NCBI RefSeq assembly: GCF_000372725.1
Contig: NW_005201732.1
Location: 248,001 to 312,000, forward strand
DNA length: 64,000 nt
Reading direction: 5' to 3'
Source: Emiliania huxleyi CCMP1516
Taxonomy: Eukaryota
Part shown: positions 38,530 through 64,000 of the stretch, piece after piece
Layout: the number at the start of each line of letters is the position of its first letter
Numbering within the stretch: position 1 is the stretch's first letter
Position numbers and translations under genes: made by a program
The notes under the pieces: model-generated
The model's database searches: none
The model's input: the letters and a program-made list of their open reading frames with translations, nothing else
What the model was told of the DNA's origin: nothing

Positions 38530-40204
38530 CGCGTAAGAGCAGCCTGCGGCGAGGTGGTCGTGATAACTCGAAACTTGTGGGACTGAGGACGCGGCGGAGC
38601 TCAGGAGGGATGCTCCAGGTGTTATTTTCAGTTAACCTGCCCCTGAGGTGCCCCTACCTACCTAGATCTACCTACCTACCTACCTACCCTACTTATGGGA
38701 AACTAAAAAAGAAATCATCGGACGGGTGAAGGTGGGGTACTACGCGTTGGTGTCCAGTCCGAGCCTGGCTGTTCTTCACCTTTCTACCTACCTACCTACT
38801 ACTATACCAACTAAAGTCATGGGTGGTGGTACTCTCCTGCAACCACAGTCCTTCCTGAGACATGACAGGCTGCCACTCTCAAGCCCTACAAGCACCAGAT
38901 CACCCACTTGGGGAGGGTTGATATCGTGATTTCGGTCGAATTTTTCTTTTTTTGAAAATTCGTGAAGAGAGGGAAAACCCCGACGGGAGGGCCCAGACCT
39001 ACCCTACCTACCCCGGCATGCTGGCCGCCCAAGCAAAAATAACATACACCTGCCGATATATACCTTCGGTCTTCGTTCTTTCTTTTTTTAGTTCTAGCGT
39101 GAAAAGAAAGACTTGCTCGAGCCCGTCCAGTACAGCTGTTCGCCAAGAGAACGACGCGACAGAGGAAGCGACGAGAGTGGGACGGCCGCGAGGTGGCACG
39201 AAGGTTGAAGCGAGAATCGGAGAGAGACTGCGAAGAGAGATAGGAAGAGGCAGACTCCCTAGGTGTACTACCTTGAGCTTGTCAAAGAGTACCATGAGGG
39301 CGAAGCAGAGGAGGTTGAGGCTCGGCTCGTTCTCGCCCGGGGGGAGGGACTTGGCGAGCGTGTCGAGGAGCCTAGTCGAGCTGCAGGTGGTGAGGGCTGT
39401 CTGCTTGGGGGGGGGGGGGGATCGTGCTGCAGCACTCACGTCGTGCGGTCGGCGCTCGGCTCGAGCCAGAAGCCGTTGTTGACGACCACCCCGTCGACCG
39501 GCCACGCGGCGGGGCAGCTCTGGTACGTGCGGCTGCCGTCGGGATCGGACCCCGGGGGCGGGCCCGCGCGCTCAAGGAGCTCAGTCGCCGTGAGGTCGCA
39601 GAGGGCCGGCACGCGCGCAAGTAGGATAGTCCTAGGGTGGGGACGACCGGGCATAGGACGACCGGATTAGCGGGGTGGGGGTGCGGGAGGGAGGGGGGGG
39701 GGGGGGGGGGGCCACATTTAGAACCCGTTGTTTTTGGACCCCCCTTTTTTTTTTACCCAAAAAGGGGGGCCCCACCCCCTTTTTTTTTCGGAGCCGGGCT
39801 CACGGTTCTAATCCCATTCAAACCCCCTAATAAAAGAAGGAGCGTTTGGCCCAACCCCTCCCCCCGTGGGGTGGGGGGTTCCCTTTTAGAGCTTTTTAAG
39901 GGTCTCCCCCCCCCCTTTCCTTCCCCCCCCTTCCCTTCCCCCCCCCCCCCCTTCTTTCCCCCCTCCCCCTTTTCCCTTTTTTCCCTCTTCTCAAGAATGT
40001 TTACGTTCGCGATCCCATTTCGTTTGCACCCCGAACTGATTTTGTTTAAAGTTAAGTTAGGTTCGTTTAAAGTTAGTTCCCTCCGGCATGTGCAACGAGT
40101 CGAGTTCGTCAAAAAGCGGGGGGGGGGGGGTGCGGCCAAAGAAATAAATTCTACGTCGGGGCCGTCCGTTCCGGGCTGTCTGTCTGCCAACCAAGAGCAT
40201 CGCG

Positions 40205-42290
40205 ATGAGGTTGCACAAGTGTCCGCTCTGTTCATTCACTCACACCTCGCTAAATATGATTGGCCAGCATAAAAGGTCGTGTACAGGCCAGACGGCCGGC
40301 AGCCTGGCCCGTCGTCAAGCATCCATGATGGGAATGCCGCCGTCATCGGATGCTGACGAGGAAGCTGCTGCGGCGTCTTTGTCTCCTGGCCCAGACTCGC
40401 TGCCGGGTGACGACGACACTCGTTCTCCACCAGGCAGTGGTGCAAGTGGCTGCAGCCACGACGCCACACCGATGGAGCAGGAGCCCTCGCCAGGTCAGGC
40501 TGTCGATGCGGCTGAAGCGGCGGCAGCTGCTGCTTCTGCCGAGAGCGCAAATGCGCGTGCGGCCACGCGTGAGCGGCAGCTAAGGCAGGTACTCAATGAT
40601 CCGAGGGCTCAGACGCCGAGAGTGATGTACAGTCTCGATGAATGGCATTGGATCCAGATGAGCAAGGACTCGCAGTGGAGCCGGAAGGATGCGGCTCGGC
40701 ATCTTACAAACGAGGCAGAGGTGCGACGAGCGGCTGGCCAGCCCTCTCTGCGGCTTTTTACGCAGGCAGACATCGACAGGCTGCTTGACGGCTACACTGC
40801 AGATCGTGGAATGGAGTTCTCTCCAACGGACGTGGTTTTTGCGGACGGCTCAAATCCTTTTCCGCGGATGGACGCCATCAAAGGCGCTGCAGGCACCGTC
40901 TGCTTGATTGCATATCAGCGATCCTCGTTGTCCGTGTTGCGGGACATGTTCACTGATCTGGCCTCTGACTCTGCAGAGCACCGGGAGGCGACGCCGTGCT
41001 TCCGCAATGGCGAACGTGTCTTTGGCGCGCCAATTACGGGCACCTGGCTCGAGGCCCAGCAGGCGCGCGTACGTGCGATCGATCCGAACGGCTACGTCTT
41101 TTCGTTTGACATATTTCACGACAAATCGGAAAAGTTCGGGCGCAGCTTTTACCCCGTCTACATTGTCAGCAACCACCTTTCCCTTGACGAGAAGCGCAAC
41201 CCAATCAACTGGCGCCTGCTTGCCCTCTGGCCGATTCTCCACTTTGACCAGTCGCCACCGCTCGGTGAGACGCAGAAGCGGCGGCAGCGGGCGAATTACA
41301 TCACAGCACTGCTCGACACCCTGCTGCGGACCGAGGAGCTCACCGACGCGATGCAGAACGGGATGGACATTGGCGACGCAAGAGTATGGCCGATTTTGCA
41401 GCTCTCTATCCTCGACCACCCGGAAAAGTGCCAAGATGCGAAGTGCAATCAGCTGCGGTGTGAGACTGCGGCACGTGCCCTCTCTAGATTTCCTCAAATT
41501 GATGGTGGTAGTGCCCTTCTAGGTGCGCCCGGTGCCGCGCGGCAAGTGGGGAGCTCTCGCACTACGAGGAGCCAGTGCTGATGCGTTGCACTGAGAGTCG
41601 AGCGCTTTTCAGATTCTACCCTGTATCAAGCCAGGGCGTAGTATTATCCTGCAATCGTGAACAGGCGAGGGAAGAATTTACCGCTTCACACGGCTTGCTG
41701 AGGCAGACTGGCGTCTAGCCGAACCAGGCGAGCGCGGCGAGAAGCGCGCCATCTTTGATGAGTGGCGACGAGTGCTCGCGGGGATCGGCTTGCACTACCG
41801 CGACAATACTAAATGGTGATGAATTTGCCACTCACCCAGCCCGGCGGCAGAGGTAAGTACGCTGAGCGCCTGTCGGCACACGCAGGCACCTCCCCGGCAG
41901 CCTAGCGTACCGATATGGGCTTCCGGTGCTCCACGTCGTCAAACAGGGCATCGGGAAGGATGCGGTGCGCAATGCGAATAGATGTAAACATCGCGCGCCA
42001 CCCATCTTTCCTTTCCAGGCAGTCGGATTTCTTCCCGGGGTTCGCGAAGTCTGTCGCACTCCTTCTCTGAGGGATCCGCCCGTCGCGTCCTCACACATGG
42101 TGGTCTCGGGCCGCTCAGATTCAGCTGACTCTGCGCGATCTCTACGAGTTCGTCGAACACCGCTCACCTGGCTCATGGGCGCGGCTGCTGGCGGCCTGGA
42201 ATGTGTGGGTGCGGACCAACCCGGGGAGCTTCCGCATTGTTCGCGGCCGAACCAAGAGGCAGGGCATCGAGGCTGTGTACGAGCCCAGCT
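40205..42290 (+). mobile_element. Plavaka-type (CACTA-related) transposase, N-terminal/catalytic part with C2H2-like finger; spliced and degenerate after ~41700
   Basis: CPLCSFTH...QHKRSC; NGERVFGAPITGTWLEAQQ...FDIFHDKS...FYPVYIV...LLALWP...WPILQLSILDHPEK...C..LR|CARC; later exon LPVLHVVKQG. Confidence 0.7.
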
Positions 42291-44903: not shown

Positions 44904-46232
44904 CTACGCTCGTGCACCCTCTGTCACTATTTCGAGTAGCGTCGCCACCGTATCCTTTTGCTCTTTCCACTCCTTCTTCCCTTCAGTAGCTGTTACTGTA
45001 CGAAATGGAGGGTCGTATTGAAACTCTCGCTCCATAGCCTTCTCAACGTCGTCTACAAATCCAGAATATGGCAGGAAAGCCACATCCGTGTGTGCCTCGG
45101 CGGCTTCCTCGAGGTAAACAAACAGACTTGTAAATAGATCGATTTCAATTAGGAACTTGCCCAGACATTTTGCAGTGTTTCGTTTGTTTTTCAACGCGGA
45201 GAATTCGTCAAACAACTTTCTTAGATTGCTGCCTGCCGCAGGCTTGGGAGAAGCACCGTCATACACCTTGACGTCTATCGTATCCGCTTGGCGTCGGGGC
45301 GAGATTTCTCCCTTTTCAGGCTTTATCAGAAAATTATTGCGCCACACTTGAGCAAGCGCGTGACTCACGCCATCCTCCTCTAGGTCCTCTATTCCAAAAC
45401 GATCTGCGGACAGACAGGGACCCAATCTGTAGGAGTGGGCTTTGTGTAGTGGGTAGGTAAACCGCAAGCGAGGATCCAGATACATTTCCTCTTTATTCTT
45501 GAATTGTTGGTTTAGTCTTGCCGTCTTCCTCTCAATCTGCTCATTCATAGCAGGTAGAATGCTCTGAGGGGCATAGCGCCTTTTCGCCCTAAGTTGGACA
45601 AGTTCCGCCAGCAGCAGCTTTCGTTCATTATTTTTTTCCACCTTCTTTGCGTTTAGTTTCAGGAAGTGCTCGTTAGCGCCTTTGACAGGCCTGCCCGTAC
45701 GAGCCGCTGGCCTATCAGCTGTGGCGTCTGCATTCGGAAGACCAGATCTCTTGTTGTCGTCTCTCGGCTTCCGCCTCATGCACTGATTCAACTCGACATA
45801 GCCTAGCAGGTATCGGATACTAGCCACGCGGAGCAGGTCCTCGCGGAGGTCCGAGACGAGCGACCGTGGAGGATTGCCACCAGCATCACTCAATCGCTTG
45901 TACTGTGACGCGTCCTGCAGCAATGCAAGCGTCGCGCTCTTGAGGGAGTCGAGAAGACTAGCGATACGCTCCCTGTCGATGCTGGATGCTTGGATATCAC
46001 AACCACCCGCATTCGCTGCTCCCAATGATGTTCTTAGCACCGAGTCCTTGAGGGGAGATGCCATCTTACGCATGAGCGTCTCGTCGAAGAGCACGCTCAA
46101 CGGATGCCCCTCTGGCAGCACGTGTTCTTCTTTGCTCAACAACTTGGGCAAATACCTCTCTGGCGTCTTCTGACGTACAGCATCTATTGCTTTGTGTCGC
46201 TTGCTTGACTGAGGAGTCGGAATGAGACTCAT
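44904..46232 (-). CDS. Orphan 442-aa basic protein, intronless, markedly lower GC than host genes
   Basis: Long uninterrupted ORF in AT-richer DNA, where chance ORFs of this length are unlikely; no family recognised. Confidence 0.65.
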   Translation of the reverse strand: MSLIPTPQSSKRHKAIDAVRQKTPERYLPKLLSKEEHVLPEGHPLSVLFDETLMRKMASPLKDSVLRTSLGAANAGGCDIQASSIDRERIASLLDSLKSATLALLQDASQYKRLSDAGGNPPRSLVSDLREDLLRVASIRYLLGYVELNQCMRRKPRDDNKRSGLPNADATADRPAARTGRPVKGANEHFLKLNAKKVEKNNERKLLLAELVQLRAKRRYAPQSILPAMNEQIERKTARLNQQFKNKEEMYLDPRLRFTYPLHKAHSYRLGPCLSADRFGIEDLEEDGVSHALAQVWRNNFLIKPEKGEISPRRQADTIDVKVYDGASPKPAAGSNLRKLFDEFSALKNKRNTAKCLGKFLIEIDLFTSLFVYLEEAAEAHTDVAFLPYSGFVDDVEKAMEREFQYDPPFRTVTATEGKKEWKEQKDTVATLLEIVTEGARA

Positions 46233-46440
46233 TTATTCATAGGTAGGAAAAAAGTCATGTGTGCTCATGTGTGAATTCAGAATGCTCTCGCGATGTGTGA
46301 ATTCAGAATGCTCTCGCGATGTCCGTGTCGTCGAGAGCGGACGCGCTAGCCGCGCCACACCCTGAGGCTCGCCGGCCCCGAGGCCTCGAGGCACTGGCAC
46401 TGAGGCTCGCCCGCCCCGAGGCCCATGGGTCCAATATAAG

Positions 46441-46655
46441 CAAAATTCAGAAATTCAGTTTTTTTGGGAGAAATTCTTCAGAAAATCTTGGCCCCTCGGG
46501 GACCCTGCCCTGGGACCCAAAAAATTATATTTCAAATTTTTCCCAAAAAAACTGAATTTCTGAATTCTTGCGTTTATATTGGCACCTGCGACCAGACCCT
46601 ACAAAAAATATTCCAACAATTTCCCCCAAAAAACTGAATTTCTGAATTCTTGTGA
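46441..46655. repeat. AT-rich inverted/direct repeat set
   Basis: AAATTCAGAAATTCAGTTTTTTTGGGAGAAATT (46443-) is inverted relative to two copies of AATTT(T)CCC(C)AAAAAA(A)CTGAATTTCTGAATTCTTG (~46535, ~46618). Confidence 0.85.
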
Positions 46656-47554
46656 CCCGGACCCTCCTTCAAATCATATATTCCTCCTCTCTCCTCCCTC
46701 CCGCCTCTGCCCCGGCCGCCTCTCTCCTCCCTGCCTTCTCTCTCCTCTCAGCCTTCTTCTCTCTCCCCTGGCCGCCTCTCGCCCTCGCCCGCCTCCCGCG
46801 CCGCGACCGCCCTCACGACTGACGCCCTCACCGCCGCTCTCCCAGGCGGCTGTGCAAGTGCTCGGTGCCTGAGCTGTAGAGGCCGCATACAGACTCGCCT
46901 CATGACTTCGTTCATGTTTAAAGCATAGCTCCAGCAGAATAGTTTGTTTGAAACTCATCAAGACTTGGAGCAACTAGCGGCGAGCGCTCGGATGGGTCGG
47001 GACGTGCCTATGCAGGGCACGGAGAGAGACCCAGTCAGAGAGAGAGAGAGAGAGAGAGGAGAGAGTCACTTGGAGCATTTGGAGTGCTTTCGCGCAAATT
47101 CTTTCTAGAGAAAAGCGAAACGGATGGATGCCGCCCGCACATATGGCGGCTGGGTGACGCGAGCGGTACCATATGGTGGGGTGGTCTGACACCGGAGGCC
47201 GCCGCGCGGCCGGCTGCCGCCTCCAGCCGCCTCAGAGCGGTCATCGATGACGTGAGGCCGCGCCTTGCGAGAACAGTCCAGTCAGTCGACACCGCTTCAA
47301 GACTTGCAAACTTAGAGGTTTGAGTCCTCCCACCCCCTCCTCCACCGCCGCCGCCTCCACCTTCTTCCCACCCCCTCCTCCACCGCCCTCGCCACCTCCG
47401 CGCCCATACCCGGCCGAGCACGCGCGCCGCCGCCGCCTCCATCTCTCCCAACCCTGTCCTCCACCACGCCACCTCGCCTCACCACTCTTCCTTACCCACT
47501 CCGTCGCCCTTGCCCCCCCCCCCCCCCCCCCCCTCCCCCCACAGGACAGAAAGA

Positions 47555-47845
47555 ATGACACCCGCGGAGGTGGTCGCACAGTCCGCTCGTTGCGTAAACG
47601 AGAAGCTTCGAGGTGGACGCAGCGTTGAATCGTATCGCAACGCCATGACCATCCAGTTACAGCGAGAACTTGGCGCTAACCTCCAGGTAAAGCCGAGAAT
47701 TGATGTTCTGTATGATGGACATGTACTACGATGTGTATTACCGGACTTTGTCATCACTGGACCACGCGGCTTCATTCTTCAGATCAGTGTACCTCCTGCC
47801 TATGTCTATCCGGGTGTCTGTGACAAGTCGGACGCTATTGATTGT
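47555..47845 (+). CDS. GxxExxY-family PD-(D/E)XK nuclease-like domain
   Basis: SARCVNEKLRGGRSVESYRNAMTIQL...VKPRIDVLYDGHVLRCVLPDFVI...FILQI resembles the GxxExxY family layout; motif is degenerate. Confidence 0.55.
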
Positions 47846-49725
47846 GCGCATCGATTGCCGACGCGCTGCAGCAGCAGCAGGGCGCGCTGCAGCGGCTGCT
47901 GCCGTCGGACGAGCTGCCCTCGCTCTCGCCCGACAGCGAGATTCACGACCGCGGACTCCTCGTGGACGCGGACTTTGCTCGAGCGGCCGGCGTGACGCAC
48001 GACCCGAGCGAGCCGCTATCCGTAGTCATCAGCTCGCTCGGCCCGGCGCAGCCACCCACCTTGCGCGACCCGCCTGGCATGCAGCTCGGCTCCGCCTACG
48101 GGCAGAGCCGTGCCGGCGCTGCCGCTCTCGCTGACGCTTCGACCTCCTTATCCCTCTCCGCCATTCCCGCTCCCGCTCTCTCCTGCTCCACGCCTGCCTC
48201 GGCGACGCCCTCGCCCCCCGGCTTCGCCGCATCCCCGTCCGCTGCCGAGCAGCCGATCGCCGAGTCCGCCGGTTTCCCCGTCATCCTCCGTCCTGCTTCG
48301 GAGCCGTCGCTGGGCGGACCGTCGGGGACGCAGCTGCAGCACACGACGCCCGGCCAGGAGGTCTTCTCTCTCGCAGCCCGCTTTCCCACCCTCGTCGTCA
48401 ACTACGTCGGCGCTAGAGAGCGACGCGAGGAGTTCTGCGCCGCGATCCTCGAGGCCAAGGAGATGGCGCGCGGCCACGGCTCGGCGCCAGCGTGGCGGAG
48501 CGATTTGGTTCCAACAGCGGGGGCAGACGCGTCCGAGGAGGAGAAGAAGCGCGCGGTGAAGGATAAGAATGCCTTCAACAGCAAGGTGTCCGCCTTCAAG
48601 CTGCTGCTCGACGCGATTGTCCTCGACTCGGGCGCGCTGAAGCCAGGCGGCGTCGACTACCCGTCCATCACCCGCTGCATCCGCCTCCTCTCCGGCACGA
48701 CGGGCGCAAAGAAGTGGGGGGAGGAGGTGCGCAAAAGCTACGAGAACGGCGCGGACGGGTACGGCGAGAAGTCCGCTGCGCGCGCTGCATATGAGGGTGT
48801 GCGGGGAGGGTCCGAGGAGGAGAGGCTCGCTGCGGCTCGCTCCTTCCGCGATGCGGTGCTGGATGCGCTCCGTGAGGAGCCGTCGCTGTCGTCCTTCGCA
48901 GACGCGGGCGGCGCGCCGGGCGCCGCGTCTTCATCGCTGACGCCGCTCAAGCGTGGGCGAGATGAGTCGGTGCTGGCGCGGTTCCTCGCCGTTGATCCCG
49001 GCGCGAGCGAGCGCTCCGCCACGGGAGTGGCTGACTTCACCTTCGCCGACGGCCTCTGCTCCTCCATCCGCGCCACCTCCTTCATGCCGCGCGGGACGCA
49101 CGTCCAGAAGAAGAAGCGGGTGGCGACGGAGATCTCTGCACTGCTCGACGCCGTCAAGCCGGTCTGCGTCTTTCTGGAGGAGTGCTATCCCCCCGTGGGT
49201 GGGTATAAGTACAAGCTGATGGAGCTGAACCACGCGCTTCGCTTTGCCGTCGTGGAGGCGTGCGAGGAGAGGGACGTGCCGTGCTACATGGTGCACTACC
49301 CCCACTGGCCCACCGCCCCCCAACCCTCCGTCTCACTCTCGTCACAGTCACCCCACCCCTCCCCCCGCCAGGTGAACGCGTCGACGTGGCTTTCGCACAT
49401 CGGCGTGAGCTACCCCAGTGGTGCTAAAGACGAGGCCAAGAAGAAGTTGGTACTTGTCGGCGCGGAGCCGAAGGGGGGAGGGGAGAGGGGGGGGCTGCTA
49501 TCGGCACTCGGCCTGCGGCACGACTCCATCCCGTTCGACATGAAGCGACACGATGCAGCCGACGCCGTCGCGATCGGGCTGGCCGGGCTGGCTGGCAAGC
49601 GAGACGGCTACAAGAAGGAGAAGCACGTCGTCACGATCAAGCCCCGCCTGCCTGAGGGCAGCTCTGAGCCGCCGCGTCTCGGCTCCCCCTCACAACTCGA
49701 ATTTGTCGAGCTCTCACAGCTCTAG
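47842..49725 (+). CDS. Protein with C-terminal RuvC-type Holliday junction resolvase domain (intron ~49291-49370)
   Basis: RFLAVDPG...TGVA (D), VFLEE (E), VNASTW, KKKLV, HDAADAVAIG (D..D): all four RuvC catalytic acidic positions are present. Confidence 0.75.
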   Translation: MCASIADALQQQQGALQRLLPSDELPSLSPDSEIHDRGLLVDADFARAAGVTHDPSEPLSVVISSLGPAQPPTLRDPPGMQLGSAYGQSRAGAAALADASTSLSLSAIPAPALSCSTPASATPSPPGFAASPSAAEQPIAESAGFPVILRPASEPSLGGPSGTQLQHTTPGQEVFSLAARFPTLVVNYVGARERREEFCAAILEAKEMARGHGSAPAWRSDLVPTAGADASEEEKKRAVKDKNAFNSKVSAFKLLLDAIVLDSGALKPGGVDYPSITRCIRLLSGTTGAKKWGEEVRKSYENGADGYGEKSAARAAYEGVRGGSEEERLAAARSFRDAVLDALREEPSLSSFADAGGAPGAASSSLTPLKRGRDESVLARFLAVDPGASERSATGVADFTFADGLCSSIRATSFMPRGTHVQKKKRVATEISALLDAVKPVCVFLEECYPPVGGYKYKLMELNHALRFAVVEACEERDVPCYMVHYPHWPTAPQPSVSLSSQSPHPSPRQVNASTWLSHIGVSYPSGAKDEAKKKLVLVGAEPKGGGERGGLLSALGLRHDSIPFDMKRHDAADAVAIGLAGLAGKRDGYKKEKHVVTIKPRLPEGSSEPPRLGSPSQLEFVELSQL

Positions 49726-51575: not shown

Positions 51576-52162
51576 AAAATGTGATCTAGTATGCAATTGC
51601 CATCTCAGAACAGCTGTGCATCTATAGATGCTTGTGGCGTCTAAGATGGAACGCGTAACACGAAAAGACACGGCGCGGCTATCTCCAGGACAGCCGTCGC
51701 ATCCTAGAATGCCCTGTGTACCCGAGACACATGGTATCTTTGAGATGAAAAGTGCGTCCTAGAATGCGTTTTTGCATTCTAGGACGCATCGGTTAAACAA
51801 AGATGGGGGGGTCGCCCCCCCAGACGCCGCATGGCCAATCGCTTCCCCACCCCGGTCACTCGCGTCACTCTCCGCCCCCTTCCCCTCCATCCGTTGCCTC
51901 TCGTGGCTGGCAGCTCACGCTGACCGAAGCCCAAATGCTCGACCCACCCCCCCTCCCCCCTCAAGTAAGTGTGTCTGCCGTGCCAGCGTCTGAACAGAGA
52001 GCGACTTCGCGGATTGAAAGAGCAGTGAACAGAGAAAGATAGGAAGAGGCAGACGCGTATGCAGTTTTTCTTTCCCCCTGTGTTAGTGCCAGTGCGCGCC
52101 AGTCCCGTGCCCAGTGTTGTGCGAGGGAGTGGTTTTTGTTTCTAAAATTCTTTTCCCGCCAG

Positions 52163-53211
52163 CCACTCGGGGAAAAGGTGTGTAGACCCCAAATCGGGTC
52201 CGGACTTCGGACCCGATTACGCTGCCGCCTCGCGCGCGCCGCTGCTGCCCTCGCCGGCAGCCGCCGCGGTCGCAGTGCCATCGTGCGGACTGGCGGTCGA
52301 CTCGCCACATCGATTTCAACTCACGCGACGCGCTCGGCCTCCGCTGGCGGCTGCCGCAAGAGCGGCTGGCTCACGGCAGCGTCTCGCCGGTTGCCGGATA
52401 GGAGAGTACAGAACGTCTGGAGTGTAACTGTGTACGTGAGATCGGTTTTGATAACAAGCACGGTCGATCCGTCAAAGCGATACACTCGTTCCTATCTCGC
52501 TGGAGGGCTGGCACGGAGCTCTGTGCCGACAAACAGGAAGAGCCGAGCGGCAAGAAGGGCTCGATGGGGAGCGAGAACCGTCAAACGTGCTCACGGAGGT
52601 TTCGGAAGTCCACCCTGATGCGGTCGGTTCCCCCCCGGTTTGAACGCGCAGCTCGCAAGACTCGTCGAGCACTCGCAGCCTCTCTGCGCCTCTCATGCTG
52701 CCGCTCTGCGGGATGTTCAGTCTTTCCGGAAGATATCGTCGAGTTTTGGAAGCTGCGCGGTCAAACCTGGGGGGAAACAAGAGCGTCACGACGGACTTCA
52801 GGTTACACCTGAAGCTCTTCTGACGGTTCTCGCTCCCCATCGAGCCCTTCTTGCCGCTCGGCTCTTCCTGTTTGTCGGCACAAAGCTCCGTGCCAGCCCT
52901 CCAGCGAGATAGGAACGAGTGTATCGCTTTGACGGATCGACCGTGCTTGTTATCAAAACCGATCTCACGTACACAGTTACACTCCAGACGTTCTGTACTC
53001 TCCTATCCGGCAACCGGCGAGACGCTGCCGTGAGCCAGCCGCTCTTGCGGCAGCCGCCAGCGGAGGCCGAGCGCGTCGCGTATCGATCGAGCTCGCGATC
53101 CGGGCCGTGGAGCCCACGAGGAAGACTTCGTCTGCTGGGACGGAGTCCCGACGCTCGCTGCGTCCGCCGGAACTGGGGTCTGCACACCTTTCGTGGCCGC
53201 GTCCCGCAGTG
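52163..53211. repeat. ~1-kb foldback (long inverted repeat)
   Basis: 52323-52582 is a near-perfect reverse complement of 52821-53081. The spacer and outer flanks are also imperfectly complementary (AAAGGTGTGTAGACCCC / GGGGTCTGCACACCTTT). Confidence 0.95.
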
Positions 53212-53287
53212 GAGGCCGCTGCCCACCTCTGGGCCGCGTTGGATATCCACCTCGAGAACCTCGAGAGAGAGTGGACGCGTGGGGTAT

Positions 53288-54298
53288 ATGCTCCTCACCG
53301 ACCTGTCTGCTGACAATCTCGAGGAAGTTGTGCGCCACTGCGACGCGAGCGCCTTCCTCAACCTGCAGGCGGCGTGCCACACGTTCCAAGATTTGGACGC
53401 CCGCCTGGTGCAGCGCGTCTGGCGGGAAATCGCGCTCGCCGCGATGGACAAGCCTTGGCTCGCACAGGACGCGGCTACGGCCGTCGACTGGAAGCGCCGC
53501 TACAAGGTCCTGATGCGCGCTGGCTGCCGCCTCAAGCTGCCTACGGTGTCCATCGAGGAGTTGCGCCGCGAGTACACCTTCCATCTCGACGGCCCCTATG
53601 TCGACGGCCCCTACCAACCCGCGATCGCCTCCCTGACTGGCACCGCTCGCGCAGCCAATTCGGACGCGGAGGCCGACGAAGGCCATCATGAAAGTGTCAC
53701 TGATGCCATCTTCCTCGATTTCAAAGGCGACGCAAGCGGAATGGTTGTACGACCCGCCTATGCTCAACGACACATTCGACGGGATGTCCAGGTGTACATG
53801 CTACACGTGCGCCGCGCTTCGGACGGCAGAGTGGCGCACCTTGCCACATTTGATCTGAGGGAGAGGGACGAGATCTACCACGAGAACCATTCATGCACCG
53901 TGTTTCGCAGCGGCCAGGCCGGCAGCGGAAGCCCAGATTGCCCGTGGCACTCGATTCCAGGCACACATTACTCGGCCCGTTTCCCAGCGCCACCGTGGCT
54001 TGGCATGGTGGAGGAGGCGGGCAATCGCGTCGAAGCCCGAGATGGCAACGCCCGCCTGAAGGTGACGGTGTGGCCGATTGAGTCTGCCCAAGAGCAGCCT
54101 GAGGCTGAGAGCGAGAGCGAGGGCGAGGAGCCCCGCTTCTGCTGCTGGGGCGAGAAGGGCTGCAGCATTGAGCTGAAGAAGCACACGTGCGACGTGCCTT
54201 ACATTGACCACACGAACTTCATGGGCGCGGCGAGCGCCACATTCCCGATCACTCTCGGCGAGTTCCCGGCGGTGCTGCGCGCGCTCGAGTGGGCCTAG
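53288..54298 (+). CDS. F-box-like protein, intronless
   Basis: MLLTDLSADNLEEVVRHCDASAFLNLQAACHTF...VWREI...DWKRRY fits the F-box pattern; C-terminus unknown. Confidence 0.6.
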   Translation: MLLTDLSADNLEEVVRHCDASAFLNLQAACHTFQDLDARLVQRVWREIALAAMDKPWLAQDAATAVDWKRRYKVLMRAGCRLKLPTVSIEELRREYTFHLDGPYVDGPYQPAIASLTGTARAANSDAEADEGHHESVTDAIFLDFKGDASGMVVRPAYAQRHIRRDVQVYMLHVRRASDGRVAHLATFDLRERDEIYHENHSCTVFRSGQAGSGSPDCPWHSIPGTHYSARFPAPPWLGMVEEAGNRVEARDGNARLKVTVWPIESAQEQPEAESESEGEEPRFCCWGEKGCSIELKKHTCDVPYIDHTNFMGAASATFPITLGEFPAVLRALEWA

Positions 54299-54942
54299 GA
54301 TTGGGCGCTTGAGAGTGATCTGCCTTGTTTGCGGACTGCCACGCCAGAGCCTGCCTGCCCGTGCCGGAGCGAGGCACGCGAGGAGCATGTGACGAGGAGG
54401 GGCCTCGCGAACGTCGCGACATTACGTAGTGTGGCTGTGGGGTCCAGGGCGCAGGGGTCCCCGCTGGCCGCGCGCTGGGGGTCGGTTTGGGTGGTACGCA
54501 CGTCTCGCTTGCCTGGGCGGTCGTGGGCAGCTATCAATTAGAATTTTACAATCAATTAGAATACCGCTGGGTGGAGGGCAATAGCGGGCAAATGGCGACG
54601 GTGGTGTTGTGTGGCGATGGCCATGGTGGCAGGCGATATGTCAATTGTCATATAATGTCAACTTGTTGGATTTCGGGATTTGTGAATTGTGAACACTAAA
54701 GAAAAAAGCGCTACACTCAACGTACAATGATGTCAATGAGATGCATCGAGCGGCGGCCCCCTCGCGCCTCGGCACTTGGGAGTCCCGACCGGGGCGCCAC
54801 TCTTTTGTCGCGGCCCGACGTGTCCAGCACCCATGTATGCCCCGTCCCATCTCTGATGCCCGTAGATGCGCCTCGCTCTCGGGAGCAGCAGCGACTCGGC
54901 CTTCCCGCGAGCCCACTACACGTACCTGTCGTCCCTGTTGCC

Positions 54943-56180
54943 TCAGTGCGTCATCGGCTCGGGCTGCGGCTGCATATTCTCGACCTGCTGCATCATCTCG
55001 CCAGACGAGACGCCACACTCCGCCGGCTGGGGCAGCGACGGCGGCACGTTCTCGTTCGGCAGCGAGGGCGGCAGCGACGGCGGCATCTGCCAATCGATCT
55101 GGTAGCGCGTGACTCGCGGTTTTTCCGCGAGGATGGTTCGGACCAGCCGGTCGTGCAGCGGCGGCTCGGGCGGGCTCTCGTTGAGCTCGGGCGCGTCGTA
55201 CTCGTTGTTGACGTAGTAGCCTGCCTCACAACCGCCGCGTCGAGGGGGCGGCGCGCGGGGGAGGGGGGGGGGGGGGGGGGGGGCAGCCCGCGCGAGAGGC
55301 TCGCGCGCGAGGGGCTGGCGGCGCGAGAGCTCGCGCCGCGAGGGCAGTCGGCGCGAGGCTGGACTGCTGGCAAGGGGCTGTGGCTGGCAAGGGGCGCTGT
55401 GCGCGCCTATCCGGATGAACTCGCGCTCGCGGAAGAAGCCGCTGAGCAGGATCACCTGGGCGTGGCAGGAGGAGGAGGGATGGGGTGTAGAGAGGAGAGC
55501 TCGGCCCGTGACCACCTCGCGCCGCCTTGCACCCCCGCAACCGCTCTCCCCTCGCCCTGCCCTACCCCCGCCCTCGCCCTCCCCTCGCCGCTCGCACCGT
55601 CACGCCGAGCAAATCATGCGACGGGATCTTGAGCGGATCGGGAGGGTCGGCCTGTGGGGCAAGCGACCGCTCAGCTTTCGGCGGGCGCTTCGGTGCGGCG
55701 GCGGAGCGACGGCGAGTGCGGAGAGGGGAAGCGGCCATGGTCGGGTGCGGGCTCCCGCGCCTGGAAGACAATCTTGTATGAGCTCGCCTGGAGAGGCGGG
55801 AAGGCGTCGGGCGTCACTCCGCGGCAGCCAGCCTCGTCCGGACGGGGCGCGGAGCGCGGGAGGGGCGATGGGTCGAGGTGGCGTGAGCGCGCGGATGGCC
55901 GCGCCTGCATCGGGCCGACCAGAATGGAGTCGAGCTCCTGGTCGTGCTCGTCGCTCTCGGCAGACCCGACGTAGATGAGCTTCCACTCGATGTCCTCACT
56001 CAGCGGCGCGAGGCACTCGAAGCTCACCTCAAACTGCGGTGCGCACGCTCGCGCAGCGGCGTCAGCCGGGAAACGCGCAGCGGGCGCGCGGCGTGGGTGG
56101 CGAGGGCGCGCCTGGAAGTCGGAGAAGAACCTGGAAGGGTTGTTGAGCACCGACACGTTCGTGACGTTGATCATCGCCAT
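54943..56180 (-). CDS. ASF1: Histone chaperone ASF1, multi-exon
   Basis: INVTNVSVLNNP, FEVSFECL, DIEWKLIYVGSAESDEHDQELDSILVGP, DPPD...DLLGVT-VILLS...EFIRIG-YYVNNEY, ILAEKPRVTRYQIDW. Confidence 0.95.
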
Positions 56181-57765
56181 CGTTACAGAAGTGGGGTAGG
56201 TGAGAATCGCCGGGCCGGGGCCGAAGACAGTTGGTGCGAAGGCGGCTGCCGCAGCGCGGGGTATTTTTTCTTTTTTAGGAATGCTATAGGAAGCCCAGAA
56301 AGGTGTGAGTGTGTGTGTTACACACGAAGCCCAGAAAGGCTCGTCTCAGAGGGTTTGTTTAGGTTTGTTCTCAGAGGGTACCCTCTGTGCCAAGAGAGGC
56401 CATCAACGAGCGGCTCAGAGGGTGCCTGGCCCTCTGAAGGCCTGTGTGCCGCCAAGCCAGCCTCTCTCGGCGCAGCCTCTGAGGCTACGACCTACGTACG
56501 GGGACCCTCTCTCTGACTGAGACCGGCCAAGGCAAGCCCCGCGAGGCCGCTCCTCAGAGGGAGTTTTCAGGCGGTATTTCAAGTCTGTCGTGATCCCCCA
56601 CCAAGCAGAGAGACCCCCCCCCCCCCCCTTCCCAATTTTTTCGGATACCTCAAGTTCGAGCTCACGCGGACGCCGCGGCGCCTCATGGCCAAGCTGGAGC
56701 AGGGGACGGACGTGGAGATCACTACCTCCTCCTCGGGCGGCCGCTCAAAGCACATCCTCAAGTTGACGGGTCGGCGCCGCGGGCCGCGCGAAGCTGTCGT
56801 GCAGGGCTCGGCGCGGGCGCTGTGGGCGAGCCTGCAGCAGCAGCAAGCTGTGTGGTGCCGGGCGCTCGAGCATAGAGTAGCGCCTTTTAGTCATGCTCGC
56901 TGCTCTTAAAGTCATACATGTTTTACTGCCGCCCCTCCCCGCCCTCACTGGTCAGCGCCGTTCGTGGAGGGCTACAGGCAGCTCCGGCCTCCGCCCGGGG
57001 CTCTCGCCTCTGCCGTGAGGGGGCTACCCTCTGAGGTCACGAAAGCCCTCTGTGCCACTGTGCCGCGCCAAGACCATCAGACAGGGACCCTCTCTGAGGC
57101 CAAAATCAGCCAAGAGAGGCCACAGAGCGGCGGCACAGAGTCAGAGTCAAACCCTCTGTGCCGCCAAGCCAGGGGTCCGACCCGTCCTCAGAGGGGGGGG
57201 TCTGGGGCGCCTCAGAGCGCGGAGGTTATATAACCCCCCCTAGAAGTCTTGTGCGTCCACCCATACCGCGCTCTGCGCCGCGCGGGTGTGGTCCCACCAG
57301 TCGTTGCACGTTGGTTTGACTGTGTTTCACCTTCGATACATACATACTCCAAAGTATTTAAGAACCGCGAAGGTGGCAATGCTCGACGGCGTCAGGATGT
57401 CAGGAACACCCCCGACGCGGAACCCCGAGAGGGCCGGACGGTGCAGGGCACACACAGGCCACAAAAATTTGCCGATCCTCCCAGCTCGTTGCACGCGTCG
57501 CCAGCCTAGGCCCGGGCGCACCCCCACGAGAATTGGGTCTGCAGGCTCGGCGCCACGGGGCGAGGGGCGCAGCAGAGGCAGCTCGACGGGAAGAAGTCGG
57601 CGCTCATGCCCGGAAAGAGCCAGGCGCGGAAAGAACGACGGCGGGGGGGGGGTCGGCCGCTGCTCGGCCCGCGGGCGCTCCTCCGCCTTTTTACGGACTT
57701 CTTTTTCTTGTTCGCTTTCGAAAAAGAAACCCGCGTCCCTTGCCGCCGACTTGACTTCGGTGAAG

Positions 57766-58593
57766 ATGGCGCGCTCTGCGCTGGTGGTCCAAAAAGGCTG
57801 GCCGTGGCACGACCCGACCCTTTGCGCCGTCTTCGCCCGCATTTACTCCCAGCGGGACATCTCTCTCATCGTGCTCTCAGAGTCTGCAGCGTGGAACGAC
57901 CAGGAGGGCGCGCTCGAGGACAGCTTGGTGATCCGGGAGGCCGTCGTCCGCTGGCTGTACGAGAACTGCACGCTCGATGTGAGCACGCACCACTGGCGCG
58001 CGCGGCTTCCCGCTGTGCCTTCGCCGCTGCCTGCGCTCGCGCCTCTGCTTCTGCATCCTCGGCTGCCCGACGGCGCGCTGCTCGCCGCTGCCGAGATCGC
58101 CGACGAGCTTGCCGAAGAAGACGTTCGTGTTGCGACAGCCTTCGCCATGCCCGCCACAAGCGTGAGGAAGACCATCGTCATCTCCTTCGACACGTACCGC
58201 AACACCTTTCCGTTCGGCTGGGTCATCAAAAACTGCTCTTGCCGGCCGGGCGCATGCACGCACGAGCGGCGAGCACTCTCCTACCGCGATTCGTGTGCGC
58301 AGGCGGGGCACGCGGCGGCGGTCGTGGCGGACCCCGGAGGATCACTCAGCACCGATCTCGCAAACGGAGTGGAGATCCACGCCGTGCAAGCATACGCGAT
58401 GGGCGGCGTCGGCCCCAAAGCCGTACACGTGAGCATGGACGAGGAGAACAAGGAGCTGCCGCTGTGGTGCAGCAGCTGCAAGAGAGCCCGCACCTGGGAG
58501 ACGGTGTGCGAGCACCAGAGGCTGGTCTTCGGAGACGGCCGTTGCCAGGCAGAGGCCGGCCGCTGCGTGGAGGCCGGCCTCTGCGGCCTCTGA
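57766..58593 (+). CDS. Protein with two SWIM-like zinc-finger motifs
   Basis: CSCRPGACTH (CxCx4CxH) and CSSCKRARTWETVCEH, each preceded by beta-strand-like segments. Confidence 0.5.
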   Translation: MARSALVVQKGWPWHDPTLCAVFARIYSQRDISLIVLSESAAWNDQEGALEDSLVIREAVVRWLYENCTLDVSTHHWRARLPAVPSPLPALAPLLLHPRLPDGALLAAAEIADELAEEDVRVATAFAMPATSVRKTIVISFDTYRNTFPFGWVIKNCSCRPGACTHERRALSYRDSCAQAGHAAAVVADPGGSLSTDLANGVEIHAVQAYAMGGVGPKAVHVSMDEENKELPLWCSSCKRARTWETVCEHQRLVFGDGRCQAEAGRCVEAGLCGL

Positions 58594-58730
58594 GGCGGAC
58601 TCGTTTTTCTATATTCTTTCTTCCTCTATGCGGGGGGCGCGAGCGCCGTCGTGTGTATCTGTTGCGCACATAATATAATATAATAAGTGTGGATAAACGC
58701 TGGGCACACAGCCACACATGTCCAAACATT

Positions 58731-60572
58731 TCACTTCTGGACCATCGACCTCGTCCGCCTTGGAGCTCCCTCTTGCAGCACCGGCAACTCGCCCGCGAGC
58801 CGCGAGGAGTGCCGCGCCGGGGCGGGGGCTGGCGCCTTGCGCTTCGCCGTCCTCCCCTGTGACGACGCATGCTCGACTCGCTGTGTCTTGCCCTGCTGCG
58901 ACTTCATGTGCGAAAGGCACCGCTCTTGCAGCAAGCCCGCGAGCGGAAGCGGGCCGCACCTGAGCTGCACCTCTAGCTCGAGCTCTCCCTCGTCCCACTC
59001 GCCCTCCACTCCACGTCCCTCCTGCTTGAGCTGCGCCGTGGCAGCCTCCCGCGCCCGCGTCTGTGCCGCCTTCCAGGCTGTGTTCTGCTTGGCCTCTCGC
59101 ATCGGCGCGTCGACTGCGTAATCGATGTACTCCTCCGTGAGCAGCTCCTTGCTCGGCCGGAAGCCGTGGAGACTGTCAGGGTTGAACCAGTGCGTGGGCA
59201 CGCCGCCGAGGTCGGCGTCCCACTGCGGCATCTCGACGTACGCGAGCGCATTCACAAACTGCATGACTGCTGGCGGGCGCTGCTGCTGCTTGAGTGCCTC
59301 TGGAGTGAGGCAGACCATGGGCGAGAGGAAGCCACCGTTCAAGTCGGCGTGCTGCCCAAACGCGGCGTAGTTGATCGCGCACCCTGCCGTCGTCTGAGGC
59401 GCGTCCCATGGGGGGTGCCGAGAGGGCGCACCGTAGTTGTGCGTGTGGTCGCGAGGCGTGTGCTGCCGAGCGTGGTGGGTATTCATCACCCGCTCCAGCT
59501 CCAGGTCGGCGCCCTTCAGGAAGGCGCCGACCGCAGCTAGCATCTCGCCCTCCGCCCGGCAAAATTCCTCGTCCTCGAGGAGGGCCGAGTTCTTGGGAGA
59601 GTACTGATTGACTCCACCGTCGCGAGGATTTGCGCGCCGGCCGCACATCCGATGGCATCCCTGCGCCCAGTGGTCGTGGTCCGCGCTGCGGCCCGGATCA
59701 ACGTAGTGCAGCGCCATGAACCGAATCGCCGACTGGAGCGGCTGTTCTTGCTCCGGCGGCAGCACACGCCCCGTGTGCAGGCAGCAGATGGCCGCATCCA
59801 TTCCGCCCTTGTTCGGGCCGTGGCGGACGAGCTCGCGAGTGGAGATGAGCACTTGGCGGGGGCCAACCTTGGCCAAAGGGGAGTGCTGCTTGAACAGCGG
59901 GGGAGCCGGTGGGTTGCCGACGACGCACTGCCAGTCGGGCTCGTCCATGCCCAAGCCGTGCCGAGCCCCGATGCTCATGACGGCACGCAGGTTCCCAACC
60001 ACTGCTCGCACCGCGTCGGTCTGCGCAAATTGATTCGATACGAGCATTGCGATCGTCTGATGAAGGCTGCCCACCCAGTTGTGTCCGGGCGCTGGGCATT
60101 GCGGCGTAGTTGGGTCCGCGGGTGAAGCGGCCGGCGTGGCGGCGGCACGCTTCGCCGCAGCTCGCTCCGCACGCAGCCGCGCCATCGAGATTTTGCTCGC
60201 TTGGGCCTTTGCCAGCCGGCGTGCCTCGCTCGCGAGGGCAGTGGCGTGGTCGACAGCCTGGACCGCGAGGGCGCATAGGCCAGGCTGCTGCGGCGGGAGG
60301 CGAGCCATGGCTGTGGGCAGCGCCCGCTGGATTGGAATCGGCGGAGCCACAGGTGCAGCGTGCGCGAAGGGCGCCACGGAGCCCATCATGTAGAAGGGTG
60401 GCCCGGGCGTAAAGAATGGTAGCACGGCGGCAGGGGGAGGGACGGCGATGGGCTGTGGCTGGTGCACCGCGCTCGCGATGGGGTAAACCCTCAGCGGGGC
60501 AGGCACTGCCGCCGGCAGCCCGCCCAGCGCTGCCACCGCTCCTCCCGTCTGCGCGTCAGTCTGCCACCACAT
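58731..60572 (-). CDS. TET/JBP-like Fe(II)-dependent dioxygenase (putative nucleic-acid base-modifying enzyme)
   Basis: MCGRRANPRDGGVNQY upstream motif; GCAINYAAFGQHADLN (HxD at 59351-59343); THWFNPDSLHG (distal His 59168-59166); basic C-terminal tail. Confidence 0.6.
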   Translation of the reverse strand: MWWQTDAQTGGAVAALGGLPAAVPAPLRVYPIASAVHQPQPIAVPPPAAVLPFFTPGPPFYMMGSVAPFAHAAPVAPPIPIQRALPTAMARLPPQQPGLCALAVQAVDHATALASEARRLAKAQASKISMARLRAERAAAKRAAATPAASPADPTTPQCPAPGHNWVGSLHQTIAMLVSNQFAQTDAVRAVVGNLRAVMSIGARHGLGMDEPDWQCVVGNPPAPPLFKQHSPLAKVGPRQVLISTRELVRHGPNKGGMDAAICCLHTGRVLPPEQEQPLQSAIRFMALHYVDPGRSADHDHWAQGCHRMCGRRANPRDGGVNQYSPKNSALLEDEEFCRAEGEMLAAVGAFLKGADLELERVMNTHHARQHTPRDHTHNYGAPSRHPPWDAPQTTAGCAINYAAFGQHADLNGGFLSPMVCLTPEALKQQQRPPAVMQFVNALAYVEMPQWDADLGGVPTHWFNPDSLHGFRPSKELLTEEYIDYAVDAPMREAKQNTAWKAAQTRAREAATAQLKQEGRGVEGEWDEGELELEVQLRCGPLPLAGLLQERCLSHMKSQQGKTQRVEHASSQGRTAKRKAPAPAPARHSSRLAGELPVLQEGAPRRTRSMVQK

Positions 60573-61522
60573 GCAAGCGGCCCCCGCCCCGCGGCCGCAA
60601 CGGTATTATGCTCCTGTAAAGCAGCTCTTCGCGCGCTCAGGAACTACTGCAACCGGACGGAAAGCGGTCGCTTCTCTATTTGTATGATCTCTCTCTCTAT
60701 TTGTACCAATCCATCCGCGTTATTCGTTGGCGCCGCCAAGTCTTGTTGAGCTTCGGGTGTTGGCCGGTGGTTGTGGCGCAGTTTGTGCGATGAGATAAAG
60801 CAACTCCCCAAGTGCGCCCACCATTCTCGTAGGAGGAAAGAAAGCTCTGACGTTTTTGTGTGGTCAGACCCCCCCCCCCCCCACACACACACATATCCCC
60901 CTGCCCACACACACCAGGCCTCGCGCCTCGGGCGGTGCCGGGGCAGCCCTGACCGTTTGCCCGCCAAAGAAAGCCAATTCTTGACTTGGGCCCTCGGGGA
61001 GGCGGCCTTCTCTCGAGGTCTCGAGATACACAAAGCGGCCAACCCGGACCGTCGGCGCGGCGGTCGGCGCAGAAAAAAAACAAAGAAAGAAAACGGACAT
61101 CCCAAGCTAGGGCTGGGCATGTTGCCTCCTGTCCGCTCAAGTTTCTTATAACCGAACTGCGATGTAACCGAACTCGAGGAATTTGCTTTCGCGGGTCACA
61201 AGGCCACATACACCCTCGCCGTGTCTCTCCTGCGGCCTCGGCGAAGCCACGTCTACCACCTGTCTGCCACGACATGAAGCAACGGGCGGACACACCCGCT
61301 GGCGAGCGGACCAGACGAGAGCAGGGCCCACCGCACACAAGCTGTCCAATGTCTCGCCACAGTGCAGCAGCTGCCCCATGGATCAAGTCTGCGACCTGCA
61401 GTCGTGAGAAGCCTCCCGCCCCCACCGTCGACCCAAAGGGGTGCCAGCAGCCACCTCGTCGTAGCCCTGTGACAGGCGCATGGCACTTGCCAGCACGGCG
61501 CCGCCTCGAAGAGCACCGCAGG

Positions 61523-63612
61523 CTAGCTCTTACTACTCCTCATCCAGAGGACGGTGTACACAGGCCTGCACGCGACAGAGTACAACGGCCAATCTGCGTC
61601 GGTGCGCGCCCACGTGACTTTGGTTTGCACGTCGCCTACGTTCCCTGGAAGACGTTGGAGGTGATACGAGAGCAGCCGCATGCAAGATCCAAGATTGCAA
61701 GAAGGGAGTTTTTCTAATTGTATCTCGAGTACGTTAAACGTTGTCCATCCAGTGGTGCGAATGTCTTGTACCTTGTGGGGAGGAGCGAGCTGGGTAGGAT
61801 GCGCTAGACGATTGATGTAACACACCGGGAGGGCGACGGTGATGACTTGGCGGACACACACACACACACACAACCCGTCCGGCGTCAGCGTCTCGCCGTC
61901 ACCGCCTCCTCCCACACGCCGCACCGCTCGCACGCGCGGACTGCACCGCTCGCACGCGCGGACTCGCATCGCCTTGCTGACCAGCTCTCGGCCACAGTCC
62001 TACTCGCCGCGCCCGCTCGCTCGCCACGATCCCTCCCGCAGGTAGGAAGGCACGGTCCCCGAGCACCTCCCCATCTCGCCCGCGACAAGCGTCGCGCAAG
62101 GGACAGAGTCTGTCGCCGTGGCAAAAATCCCTCTCCCCGCGCAAAACACACGGTCGAGGACCTCGCCGGGATAGTGCGCCTTTGTGCGCCTCGCCGCGTG
62201 GTCGATCGCGGCACCCATGGCGGCGCGAAAGCTGGCCGCCTCGTCAGAGGTCAGGTCGGCGCGCTCCTCCGAGTGGGCCGCCCACCGCGCCGCAAAGGTG
62301 TGGTGGAAGGAGAGGGCCTGCGAGCTGTGGATCCGAAACTCGGGCCCGCCGCCGCCCGGCCGCTCCGCCTCGAGCACCGACTGCACGCGCAAGTAGTTGA
62401 GGCCAAGTTCGGGCAGCGGCGCCACGTCCTGCTCCTGCGCCTTGACCACGACCGGGTGCAGGCCCCACGGGGAGGGCGGGGTCAGGTCGAAGCACCTGCC
62501 GTCTCGCCCGGACGGCGGCGAGGGCGAGACAAAGATGACGCGGCCGACGTCCGTGCACACGCTCCGCTTCCGCTTCCGCTTCCGCCCGTGACCGGTCGTC
62601 GAGCCGCTCTCCTGCGCGTACCGCTTGCGAAGCTCCTCGCCCTCCATCTTCTCGCCCGGAAGAAAGCGGTCTCGTGGACGCACCTTGGGCACGTACCGGC
62701 CCTGGAGCGGAGCGCAGAAGGGTCCGTCGCGGGGGAGGGGAGGGTGGAGGCGGTGACGGGGAGGGGGTGGCGGTGAGGGGGGCGGTGGGCGGTGATGCCG
62801 CCACGCTCCACGGCGTGCGTCGCAAACCCGCGGCCGGCCCCCGCACTGGGCGAGAAGCCATCCGACTGGTCCCGACGTGCCCACCGTGAGGCGTGGCTGC
62901 GTGGGGCGTGGCGGCGGCAGCAGGGGCGCGGGGCGGGCCGGGAGGGAGAGGGGCCGCAGATGCGCGCAGCGCACATTGGGCATGTGTCTGCGAAGCCTCT
63001 TGGTCGCCTCCTCCAAGCTCAAGTGCGGCGGGACGTACGGCCGTCCGGCGCTGACACTGATCCAACCGCCGTCGCTGCGGTACTCACCCACCTCCTCGCC
63101 CTCGTCGTCGCCAAAGGTGGCCACAGGCGTCAGCGCGAGTTGCGGCGTGTAAACGGCGTCGTGCTGCTCGCCTCGGCGCGTCTCCTTGCTCCTGCGGCGG
63201 CCGATGTCGCGCCACGGAAAGTCTGCCGCGGCCGCGTCGAGAGGCACGACGTAGGTGCTGTAGTCGTCCTCGGGATTGACGCAGTCGGTGCCAAACACCG
63301 TCTTGTGAATCTACGAGGCGGGGACGAGCGCTCAACTGCGAGAGAGCCGGGACACGGACACAGCCCGCACGGGGCATTCGCCTGTCTCGCCGCAGCGCCA
63401 AATGTCTCCCATAGGCCGTGTGCAGTGAACTCGCTCCGCCACCGCTCCGCCTGCACTTGGTCGGGAAGGAGTCGATGCGGATCAAAGGCGAGGCAGCGCG
63501 TGGCGCGGAGCTGAAAGAAGTCGGCGTCGAGGATCTCGAGTATCACGACGGGCCGGCTGGCGCCCGACGCGTCGTCGCGCAAGAGAGCACACAGCAGCTT
63601 GTCGGCGCGCAT
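61523..63612 (-). CDS. Hypothetical multi-exon protein with NLS-like RKRKRKR; structure uncertain
   Basis: Coding-like ORF segments at 63612-63330, 63310-62975, 62700-62000 and possibly 61847-61523; no family recognised. Confidence 0.35.
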
Positions 63613-64000
63613 GAGGGCAAGGGACACAGCTCGCACACCAAATGTTTTTCTTTCGTTGTATGAGGGTCAGCTCGGCTAGGGTTGCGCAGCTATGAACAGG
63701 AGCGAGTTCGTGCTGCGCTAGGCTCAGACGGCGTGTTCGCGCTGCGCTAGGCTCAGTACGGCGAGTTCGCGCTCTGCGGCAAGGCTCTCTTGCGGAGAAT
63801 TTATCTCTCGGCTGCGTTGGCTCGCCAAAGTATTTGTTCTCGATGGCGCTGGGTCCGCTGACTGGGGCGGGCGTGGGTGTGCGTGTTTTGTAGAGAAGCA
63901 AAAACGCACGTCGTCCGGGTTCTGTCGTGTGCGTCGAGCGTGCGGGCGGAGGCGAGGCTGAGCCTGTGGGCTGTGGCGAGAGCTAAGACAGAGCAGTGCG

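What the first reader, a model, noticed from the sequence alone, without database searches (positions are those of the whole stretch)
57766..60572. TET/JBP-like base-modifying dioxygenase in an accessory block, paired with a SWIM-finger gene and possibly lacking the 2-oxoglutarate Arg
Seen in sequence: an apparently intronless 613-aa ORF with N..xxxxHxD, a distal FxxxxxHG about 60 aa later and an upstream M.G.R...G..Y motif. It converges on a gene with two SWIM-like fingers. Established: TET/JBP enzymes oxidise 5mC or T in DNA; in fungi they travel with KDZ (SWIM/CxC-containing) and Plavaka transposons; Chlamydomonas CMD1 is a TET homolog that uses ascorbate instead of 2OG. Inference: the segment after the distal His (GFRPSKELLTEEYIDYAV) shows no obvious canonical 2OG-binding Arg strand. 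This could be a mobile-element-borne DNA-modification module with non-standard chemistry in a haptophyte.
Basis: partly seen in the sequence, partly recalled or inferred. Interest (0 to 1): 0.85.

Follow-up and report, generated by a model that had tools for sequence, protein, structure and literature searches.

The report
Mobile TET-like enzyme lacking cofactor arginine
This is a real, unspliced gene on a stretch of DNA whose position and abundance vary between samples; it likely encodes a very divergent TET-type DNA-base oxidising enzyme whose whole small family lacks the arginine that normally grips the co-substrate, so its chemistry is an open, testable question.

Summary
The 613-aa ORF (58731-60572, minus) is real and unspliced in RNA-type contigs. 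It belongs to a small unnamed family (19 representatives among 1.84 billion; 37-58% identity between groups) that keeps H408-x-D410...H469. Pfam, HMMER and hhalign do not place it. Three weak lines agree on TET/JBP: language-model neighbours are fungal Tet_JBP clusters, the family profile ranks phage TET/JBP proteins first, and a model folded from family sequences alone has CcTET, TET2 and CMD1 as its top Foldseek hits (E 0.6-0.9, not significant). No conserved Arg lies in either candidate for the last strand, so the loss is family-wide. That is not a CMD1 signature: CMD1 keeps that Arg in sequence, and two of its essential ascorbate contacts are not matched here. The active site was not resolved in the model. 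The block has a left junction near 57631-57764 and its depth varies 0.5- to 2.5-fold against flanking genes, but no transposase or terminal repeats bound it. The SWIM-like neighbour is real, but a fixed partnership is not supported. Verdict: likely a new variant of TET/JBP with a rebuilt co-substrate pocket.

The parts
58731..60572 (-). TET/JBP-like dioxygenase ORF, 613 aa: low-complexity N-terminus (1-155), conserved core (about 163-560), basic tail
59343..59351 (-). H408-x-D410, predicted iron ligands
   Evidence: 14 of 15 rows; in register with phage TET/JBP HxD
59154..59168 (-). Distal H469 with F471, R472, P473; CMD1 has the same Arg-Pro after its distal His
   Evidence: H469 and R472 18 of 18, F471 17 F + 1 Y; CMD1 stretch printed
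59676..59699 (-). D292-P-G-R295...H299 loop; R295 is the likely counterpart of TET2 Arg1261 / CMD1 Arg244 (inferred)
   Evidence: R295 12 of 13; aligns with the loop Arg of phage TET/JBPs
58905..58985 (-). Conserved block 530-556 after a helical insert; preferred candidate for the last beta-strand; no conserved Arg in 538-550
   Evidence: low confidence in the model
57766..58593 (+). 275-aa ORF with two SWIM-like Cys/His clusters, convergent
   Evidence: RNA-type contigs in X10; no Pfam match
57631..57764 (.). Left junction of the variable block: contigs of other runs leave the window at 57631 and join it at 57738-57764
62000..63612 (-). Unnamed gene, probably in several exons, sharing the depth pattern of the block
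   Evidence: no Pfam match

Best explanation
This gene is transcribed without introns, lies on a position-variable block, and likely encodes a divergent TET/JBP iron dioxygenase that would oxidise the methyl group of 5-methylcytosine or thymine in DNA using a rebuilt co-substrate pocket. Inferred steps: Fe(II) is held by H408, D410 and H469; R295 covers the flipped base and the metal-side carboxylate as the loop Arg does in TET2, NgTET1 and CMD1; the distal Arg clamp is gone and its space is narrowed by F405, F471 and the F/Y at 419; the co-substrate is most likely still 2-oxoglutarate or another 2-oxo acid, held by other invariant polar residues (Q438, R472 or Q549). The likely role is that of mobile-DNA cargo that changes the methylation state of its own block. 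My odds: TET/JBP descent 0.88; canonical Arg absent, given that, 0.85.
For: Family: 19 representatives at E<=0.001 of 1.84 billion, triad kept. Atlas features: the P0005 homolog scores 0.92 with 171 shared features to a cluster with 43% Tet_JBP members, and P0003 scores 0.89 to one with 13% (one source). The family HMM run on 916 unique ORFs of phage loci, 203 of them TET/JBP, puts 25 of 25 and 49 of 50 TET/JBPs on top, best 7.9 bits against 2.5 for any other ORF. Unguided MAFFT puts R295, the long helix, H408, D410 and H469 in register with three phage clades. The family-only model (pLDDT 70.1, pTM 0.76) has CcTET, TET2, CMD1 and TET2 at Foldseek ranks 1-4 of 350,542 chains. Arg absence: position 544 shows nine residue types in 20 rows, none basic; 543 is P in 17 of 20; T479 in 18 of 19. 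Mobility: junction and depth.
Against: No significant sequence match: Pfam none, PDB none, hhalign to phage TET/JBP P=0.64, 0.15, 0.083, and the phage HMM scores the family no better than shuffles (17-97 of 300 reach it). The ranking rests mostly on one phage clade. Atlas recognition values were low (1558, 1642). Foldseek E-values are 0.6-1.5 and TM 0.22-0.32, with FTO at rank 6. Residues 302-323, 371-414 (including HxD) and 546-560 are under pLDDT 50, so neither triad clustering nor the last strand was seen. No base-stacking aromatic is evident in the 540-552 candidate (Q549/E550 instead). No activity data.
Confidence: 0.5

Rival explanations
1. TET/JBP descendant that has dropped 2-oxoglutarate and uses ascorbate (as CMD1) or another small molecule to build a non-standard base.
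For: No Arg at the site. Shares with CMD1 the Arg-Pro after the distal His and an ungapped spacing from HxD to the next strand (by eye), and a His just after the loop Arg (H299; CMD1 His249, PMC7854593). Bulky invariant residues stand at positions that line the CMD1 pocket (Val342, Ile356, Thr399). CMD1 is Foldseek rank 3.
Against: CMD1 keeps Arg410 in sequence and excludes 2OG by Trp358; Thr399 and Trp358 are essential for it (PMC7854593). Here the matching positions are F471 and a variable C/V/A/H/N at 421 (anchored by eye on the His residues). CcTET and TET2 rank with CMD1.
Confidence: 0.25
2. Iron enzyme of the wider double-stranded beta-helix class (AlkB/FTO-like or small-molecule oxygenase), not TET/JBP.
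For: No significant sequence link; FTO appears among the weak Foldseek rows.
Against: All three solved TET/JBP subfamilies outrank FTO; Atlas neighbours with a family are Tet_JBP; TET-type helix and loop elements are collinear.
Confidence: 0.1
3. Catalytically dead TET-fold protein that binds metal and methylated DNA as a reader or shield.
For: Arg clamp lost and pocket positions filled with aromatics.
Against: The triad and many pocket-side polar residues are invariant over 37-58% identity.
Confidence: 0.08
4. Ordinary TET pocket in which a displaced Arg fills the canonical site and only the sequence register misleads.
For: R472 (18 of 18) and R313 (12 of 12) are invariant; the last strand was not resolved.
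Against: CMD1 has the same Arg after its distal His and the paper does not list it among co-substrate contacts; R551 is K or G in 3 of 19 rows.
Confidence: 0.07

Closest known systems
Fungal transposon-linked TET/JBP dioxygenases (PF12851; CcTET 7vpn/8jkk; PU, AG and PE types of Kojima 2025, PMC12730594)
   Same: Nearest by Atlas features and Foldseek rank 1; HxD...H triad; mobile-DNA setting
   Different: No Pfam match; no conserved Arg on either candidate last strand; helical insert after the distal His; no transposase beside it
Chlamydomonas CMD1 (7cy4-7cy8, PMC7854593)
   Same: Arg-Pro after the distal His; similar HxD-to-strand spacing; extra N-terminal sheet in the model; no usable distal Arg (inferred)
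   Different: CMD1 keeps Arg410 and needs Trp358 and Thr399; these are not matched; the stacking Phe416 has no clear counterpart
Human TET2 (4nm6) and Naegleria NgTET1 (4lt5)
   Same: Triad, loop Arg, long helix before the first strand; A-G-L-V at 545-548 resembles the NgTET1 last strand
   Different: Arg1896/Arg289 absent; Tyr1902/Phe295 apparently replaced by Gln or Glu
Phage TET/JBP thymine and 5mC oxygenases (Nigel gp2, P12024L gp26, MED4-184)
   Same: Collinear motifs; the best short match is the helix end before the first strand
   Different: The last-strand Arg and Ser are invariant in all 22 rows of the phage alignment and missing here

Membership tests
TET/JBP | HxD...H iron triad | tested here: met
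   14 of 15, 14 of 15, 18 of 18 rows; spatial clustering not seen
TET/JBP | Match to PF12851 or to a TET/JBP profile at significance | tested here: not met
   note that Nigel gp2 also falls below the curated cut-off
TET/JBP | Double-stranded beta-helix with TET-type N-terminal extension | tested here: inconclusive
   Five core strands modelled, top four Foldseek rows are TETs, but E 0.6-1.5 and HxD region under pLDDT 50
TET/JBP | Loop Arg (Arg1261/Arg224/Arg244) | tested here: inconclusive
   R295 aligns there; that alignment is wrong in other parts
canonical 2OG-using TET | Arg (with Ser) on the last strand binding the distal carboxylate | tested here: not met
   in both candidate registers
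TET/JBP | Oxidation of 5mC or T in DNA | not testable with these tools
   needs an assay
CMD1 | Ascorbate contacts Trp358 and Thr399 | tested here: not met
   C421 (variable) and F471, anchored by eye on the His residues (PMC7854593)
TET-carrying DNA transposons (KDZ, Plavaka, others) | Transposase and terminal repeats enclosing the gene | tested here: inconclusive
   None in 52000-64000; the right end of the block may lie beyond the window; Plavaka gene 16 kb away
SWIM zinc finger | CxC-xn-CxH with n about 6-25 (recalled) and a Pfam match | tested here: inconclusive
   Ligands present, spacing off (n=4; CxxC), no Pfam match

The most novel reading that the evidence does not exclude
A marine-protist TET/JBP family that uses neither 2-oxoglutarate nor the CMD1 ascorbate pocket and writes an undescribed modified base, spread between loci on a mobile block.
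Probability: 0.22. Interest if true: 0.88.

Novelty: new variant of a known kind. Interest (0 to 1): 0.6.

Why it matters
CMD1 showed that a TET homolog with an altered pocket can make a new DNA base. This family gives an intronless, expressed candidate with a differently altered pocket that annotation misses (no Pfam match; none of the 20 members of its cluster carries a name). One assay tells whether TET chemistry runs without the Arg clamp or whether a new co-substrate is in use. If the host is a haptophyte, whose linker DNA is heavily methylated (bioRxiv 10.1101/2021.06.11.447926, passages), it is also a candidate eraser of that mark.

Tried and rejected
First AlphaFold model (12 rows, pLDDT 45.4): no usable fold; Foldseek and VIA gave nothing. 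VIA-align on the second model could not be run. Adding phage rows to the folding alignment was dropped because MAFFT misaligned them. An intron hiding an Arg exon: rejected. Last strand directly after the distal His (T479 at the Arg site, Y485 stacking; suggested and by a 15-residue Tyr-to-Trp spacing as in TET2): disfavoured, since 481 and 483 show nine residue types each, charged ones included, and the model makes no strand there at pLDDT 84; it has no Arg either. No relatives in viral contigs or annotated phages; one near-identical locus of 2054 nt in metagenome contigs, too short for neighbours. No whole genome was held, so paralogs and neighbours of distant homologs are untested; the genome-contig collection was not scanned. 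No complex prediction was run. Literature: no paper on a haptophyte TET/JBP came up in searches 40 (0 papers), 46, 49, 57, 108, 133 and 134; Iyer et al. 2013 was not held, and I recall that it and a 2014 paper from that group list algal TET/JBP expansions, so presence in this lineage may be in print. PMC13229309 held none of six search terms on the Arg. The CMD1 alignment figure in the supplement is a picture and could not be read.

Full report
Observation. The 613-aa ORF and the convergent 275-aa ORF are present as described. Two runs that skip the neighbouring ASF1 intron carry the long ORF in single contigs (X10 58658-60607 without a gap; X11 58730-60164 with one small gap), and a metatranscriptome (X12) has six short contigs on it, so the gene is unspliced and no hidden exon supplies an Arg. 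A near-identical metagenome copy differs by 9 silent and 6 amino-acid changes, five of the six outside residues 163-560.

The family. Word-seeded searches gave 4 and 5 proteins; the full profile scan gave 19 representatives at E<=0.001 among 1.84 billion and no bridge to a named family. In the 24-row alignment the 11 near-full rows form 7 groups at 37-58% identity; chimeric-looking P0027, P0034, P0051 and P0056 were left out. Conserved: R295 12 of 13, R308 and R313 12 of 12, F405 15 of 15, H408 and D410 14 of 15, Q438 18 of 18, H469 and R472 18 of 18, D484, Y485 and W500 18 of 18, Q549 19 of 20, E550 18 of 19.

Is it TET/JBP? Direct tests fail: Pfam, PDB sequences, hhalign against phage TET/JBP profiles (P 0.64, 0.15, 0.083), and a phage HMM against shuffles. 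Three weaker tests agree. Atlas features of two homologs point to basidiomycete clusters with Tet_JBP members (0.92 and 0.89, low recognition). The family HMM ranks TET/JBP ORFs in 25 of the top 25 and 49 of the top 50 of 916 ORFs, of which 203 are TET/JBP, mostly through one clade. A model from family rows alone (pLDDT 70.1, pTM 0.76) has strands at 417-420, 435-439, 444-448, 457-463 and 469-472, and its best four Foldseek rows are CcTET, TET2, CMD1 and TET2 (E 0.60-1.5, TM 0.22-0.32; none at E<=0.001; FTO rank 6). The stretch with HxD and the C-terminal block are under pLDDT 50, so the active site is unseen. I put TET/JBP descent at about 0.88, on a resemblance basis; the formal profile test is not met.

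The missing Arg. In 22 phage TET/JBPs the last-strand Arg and Ser are invariant, and TET2 and NgTET1 have the Arg (PMC7854593). Two registers are possible here. Directly after H469, T479 takes the Arg site, but the would-be pocket positions vary freely and the model makes no strand there. After a helical insert (494-518), block 540-556 is conserved and resembles the NgTET1 strand at 545-548; the Arg site is then 543 (P in 17 of 20) or 544 (nine types, none basic). No Arg or Lys is conserved in 474-490 or 538-550. The loss is therefore inherited by the family. Positions that line the co-substrate pocket in CMD1 (Val342, Ile356, Thr399) correspond, counted by eye from the His residues, to F405, M/F/Y419 and F471, which suggests a narrower, greasier pocket. 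I therefore favour 2OG or another 2-oxo acid held by other residues, with non-2OG chemistry as the main rival.

Setting. Contigs of X2 and X4 and a loose end in X12 leave the window sequence at 57631, in what reads as the 3' end of a host gene; the other continuation is not in the window. Contigs with the SWIM-like start join at 57738 (X5, X6) or 57764 (X2) with other letters ahead. Per-contig depth, flank against block: X3 44-57 against 116-147; X4 46-54 against 23-30; X5 30-44 against 75-78; X6 4-8 against 13-14; X2 30-42 against 35-38. The tool warns that depth is no copy number and these runs were chosen for holding the gene, so this is a hint of dosage variation; the junction is firmer. 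The block extends to at least 63600. No matching terminal repeats or transposase bound it. A Plavaka transposase (PF18759, E 4.1e-7, above cut-off) lies at 40148-41578, 16 kb away beyond ASF1 and other genes, so a link is unproven. Precedent: fungal transposons carry TET/JBP genes (PMC12730594, section 3.4 and passages), and red-algal Plavaka elements carry a 2OG-oxygenase accessory gene (bioRxiv 10.1101/2025.02.11.637652, one passage).

The neighbour. Both Cys/His clusters are kept in its only two homologs (86-95%; lengths 151-482 searched). X2 has both genes on one contig, but in X4 the TET contig departs at 58631 and depth over 58167-58617 falls to 5.5 from about 22. The pairing looks like shared cargo rather than a fixed module.

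Novelty. No paper on such a family came up in the searches named under Tried and rejected, with the caveat given there. Four earlier notes of this scan describe Arg-less TET-like clades in diatoms, a fungal transposon and phages; they are unchecked, and a sequence look-up found none like this protein. If right, they make Arg loss a recurring theme, which lowers the surprise of this case and raises the value of one assay. Verdict: new variant of a known kind, interest 0.6.

Noticed in passing
window 40148-41578 (+): Plavaka transposase domain (PF18759, E 4.1e-7) with an N-terminal Cys/His motif, in a separate accessory-looking region.
   Followed up: partly
window 44904-49725: Lower-GC 442-aa ORF without family, a PD-(D/E)XK_3-like piece (E 0.0011, below cut-off) and a C-terminal region that looks RuvC-like by eye; may be virus-derived DNA.
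   Followed up: partly
window 52077-53270: Palindromic element with 346-nt arms at 92% and very high depth in four runs: an abundant non-autonomous repeat.
   Followed up: partly
window 56300-57300, 60900-61120, 63700-64000: Further high-copy repeats that flank or interrupt the block; not matching ends of one element.
   Followed up: partly
window 56033-56112: ASF1 intron with GC-AG ends on the minus strand, skipped in two RNA-type runs.
   Followed up: yes
window 63014-63613: All four runs also hold a paralog of this unnamed gene at about 86% identity with a different intron.
   Followed up: no
P0006 (1064 aa): One homolog has about 600 extra N-terminal residues without a Pfam match.
   Followed up: no
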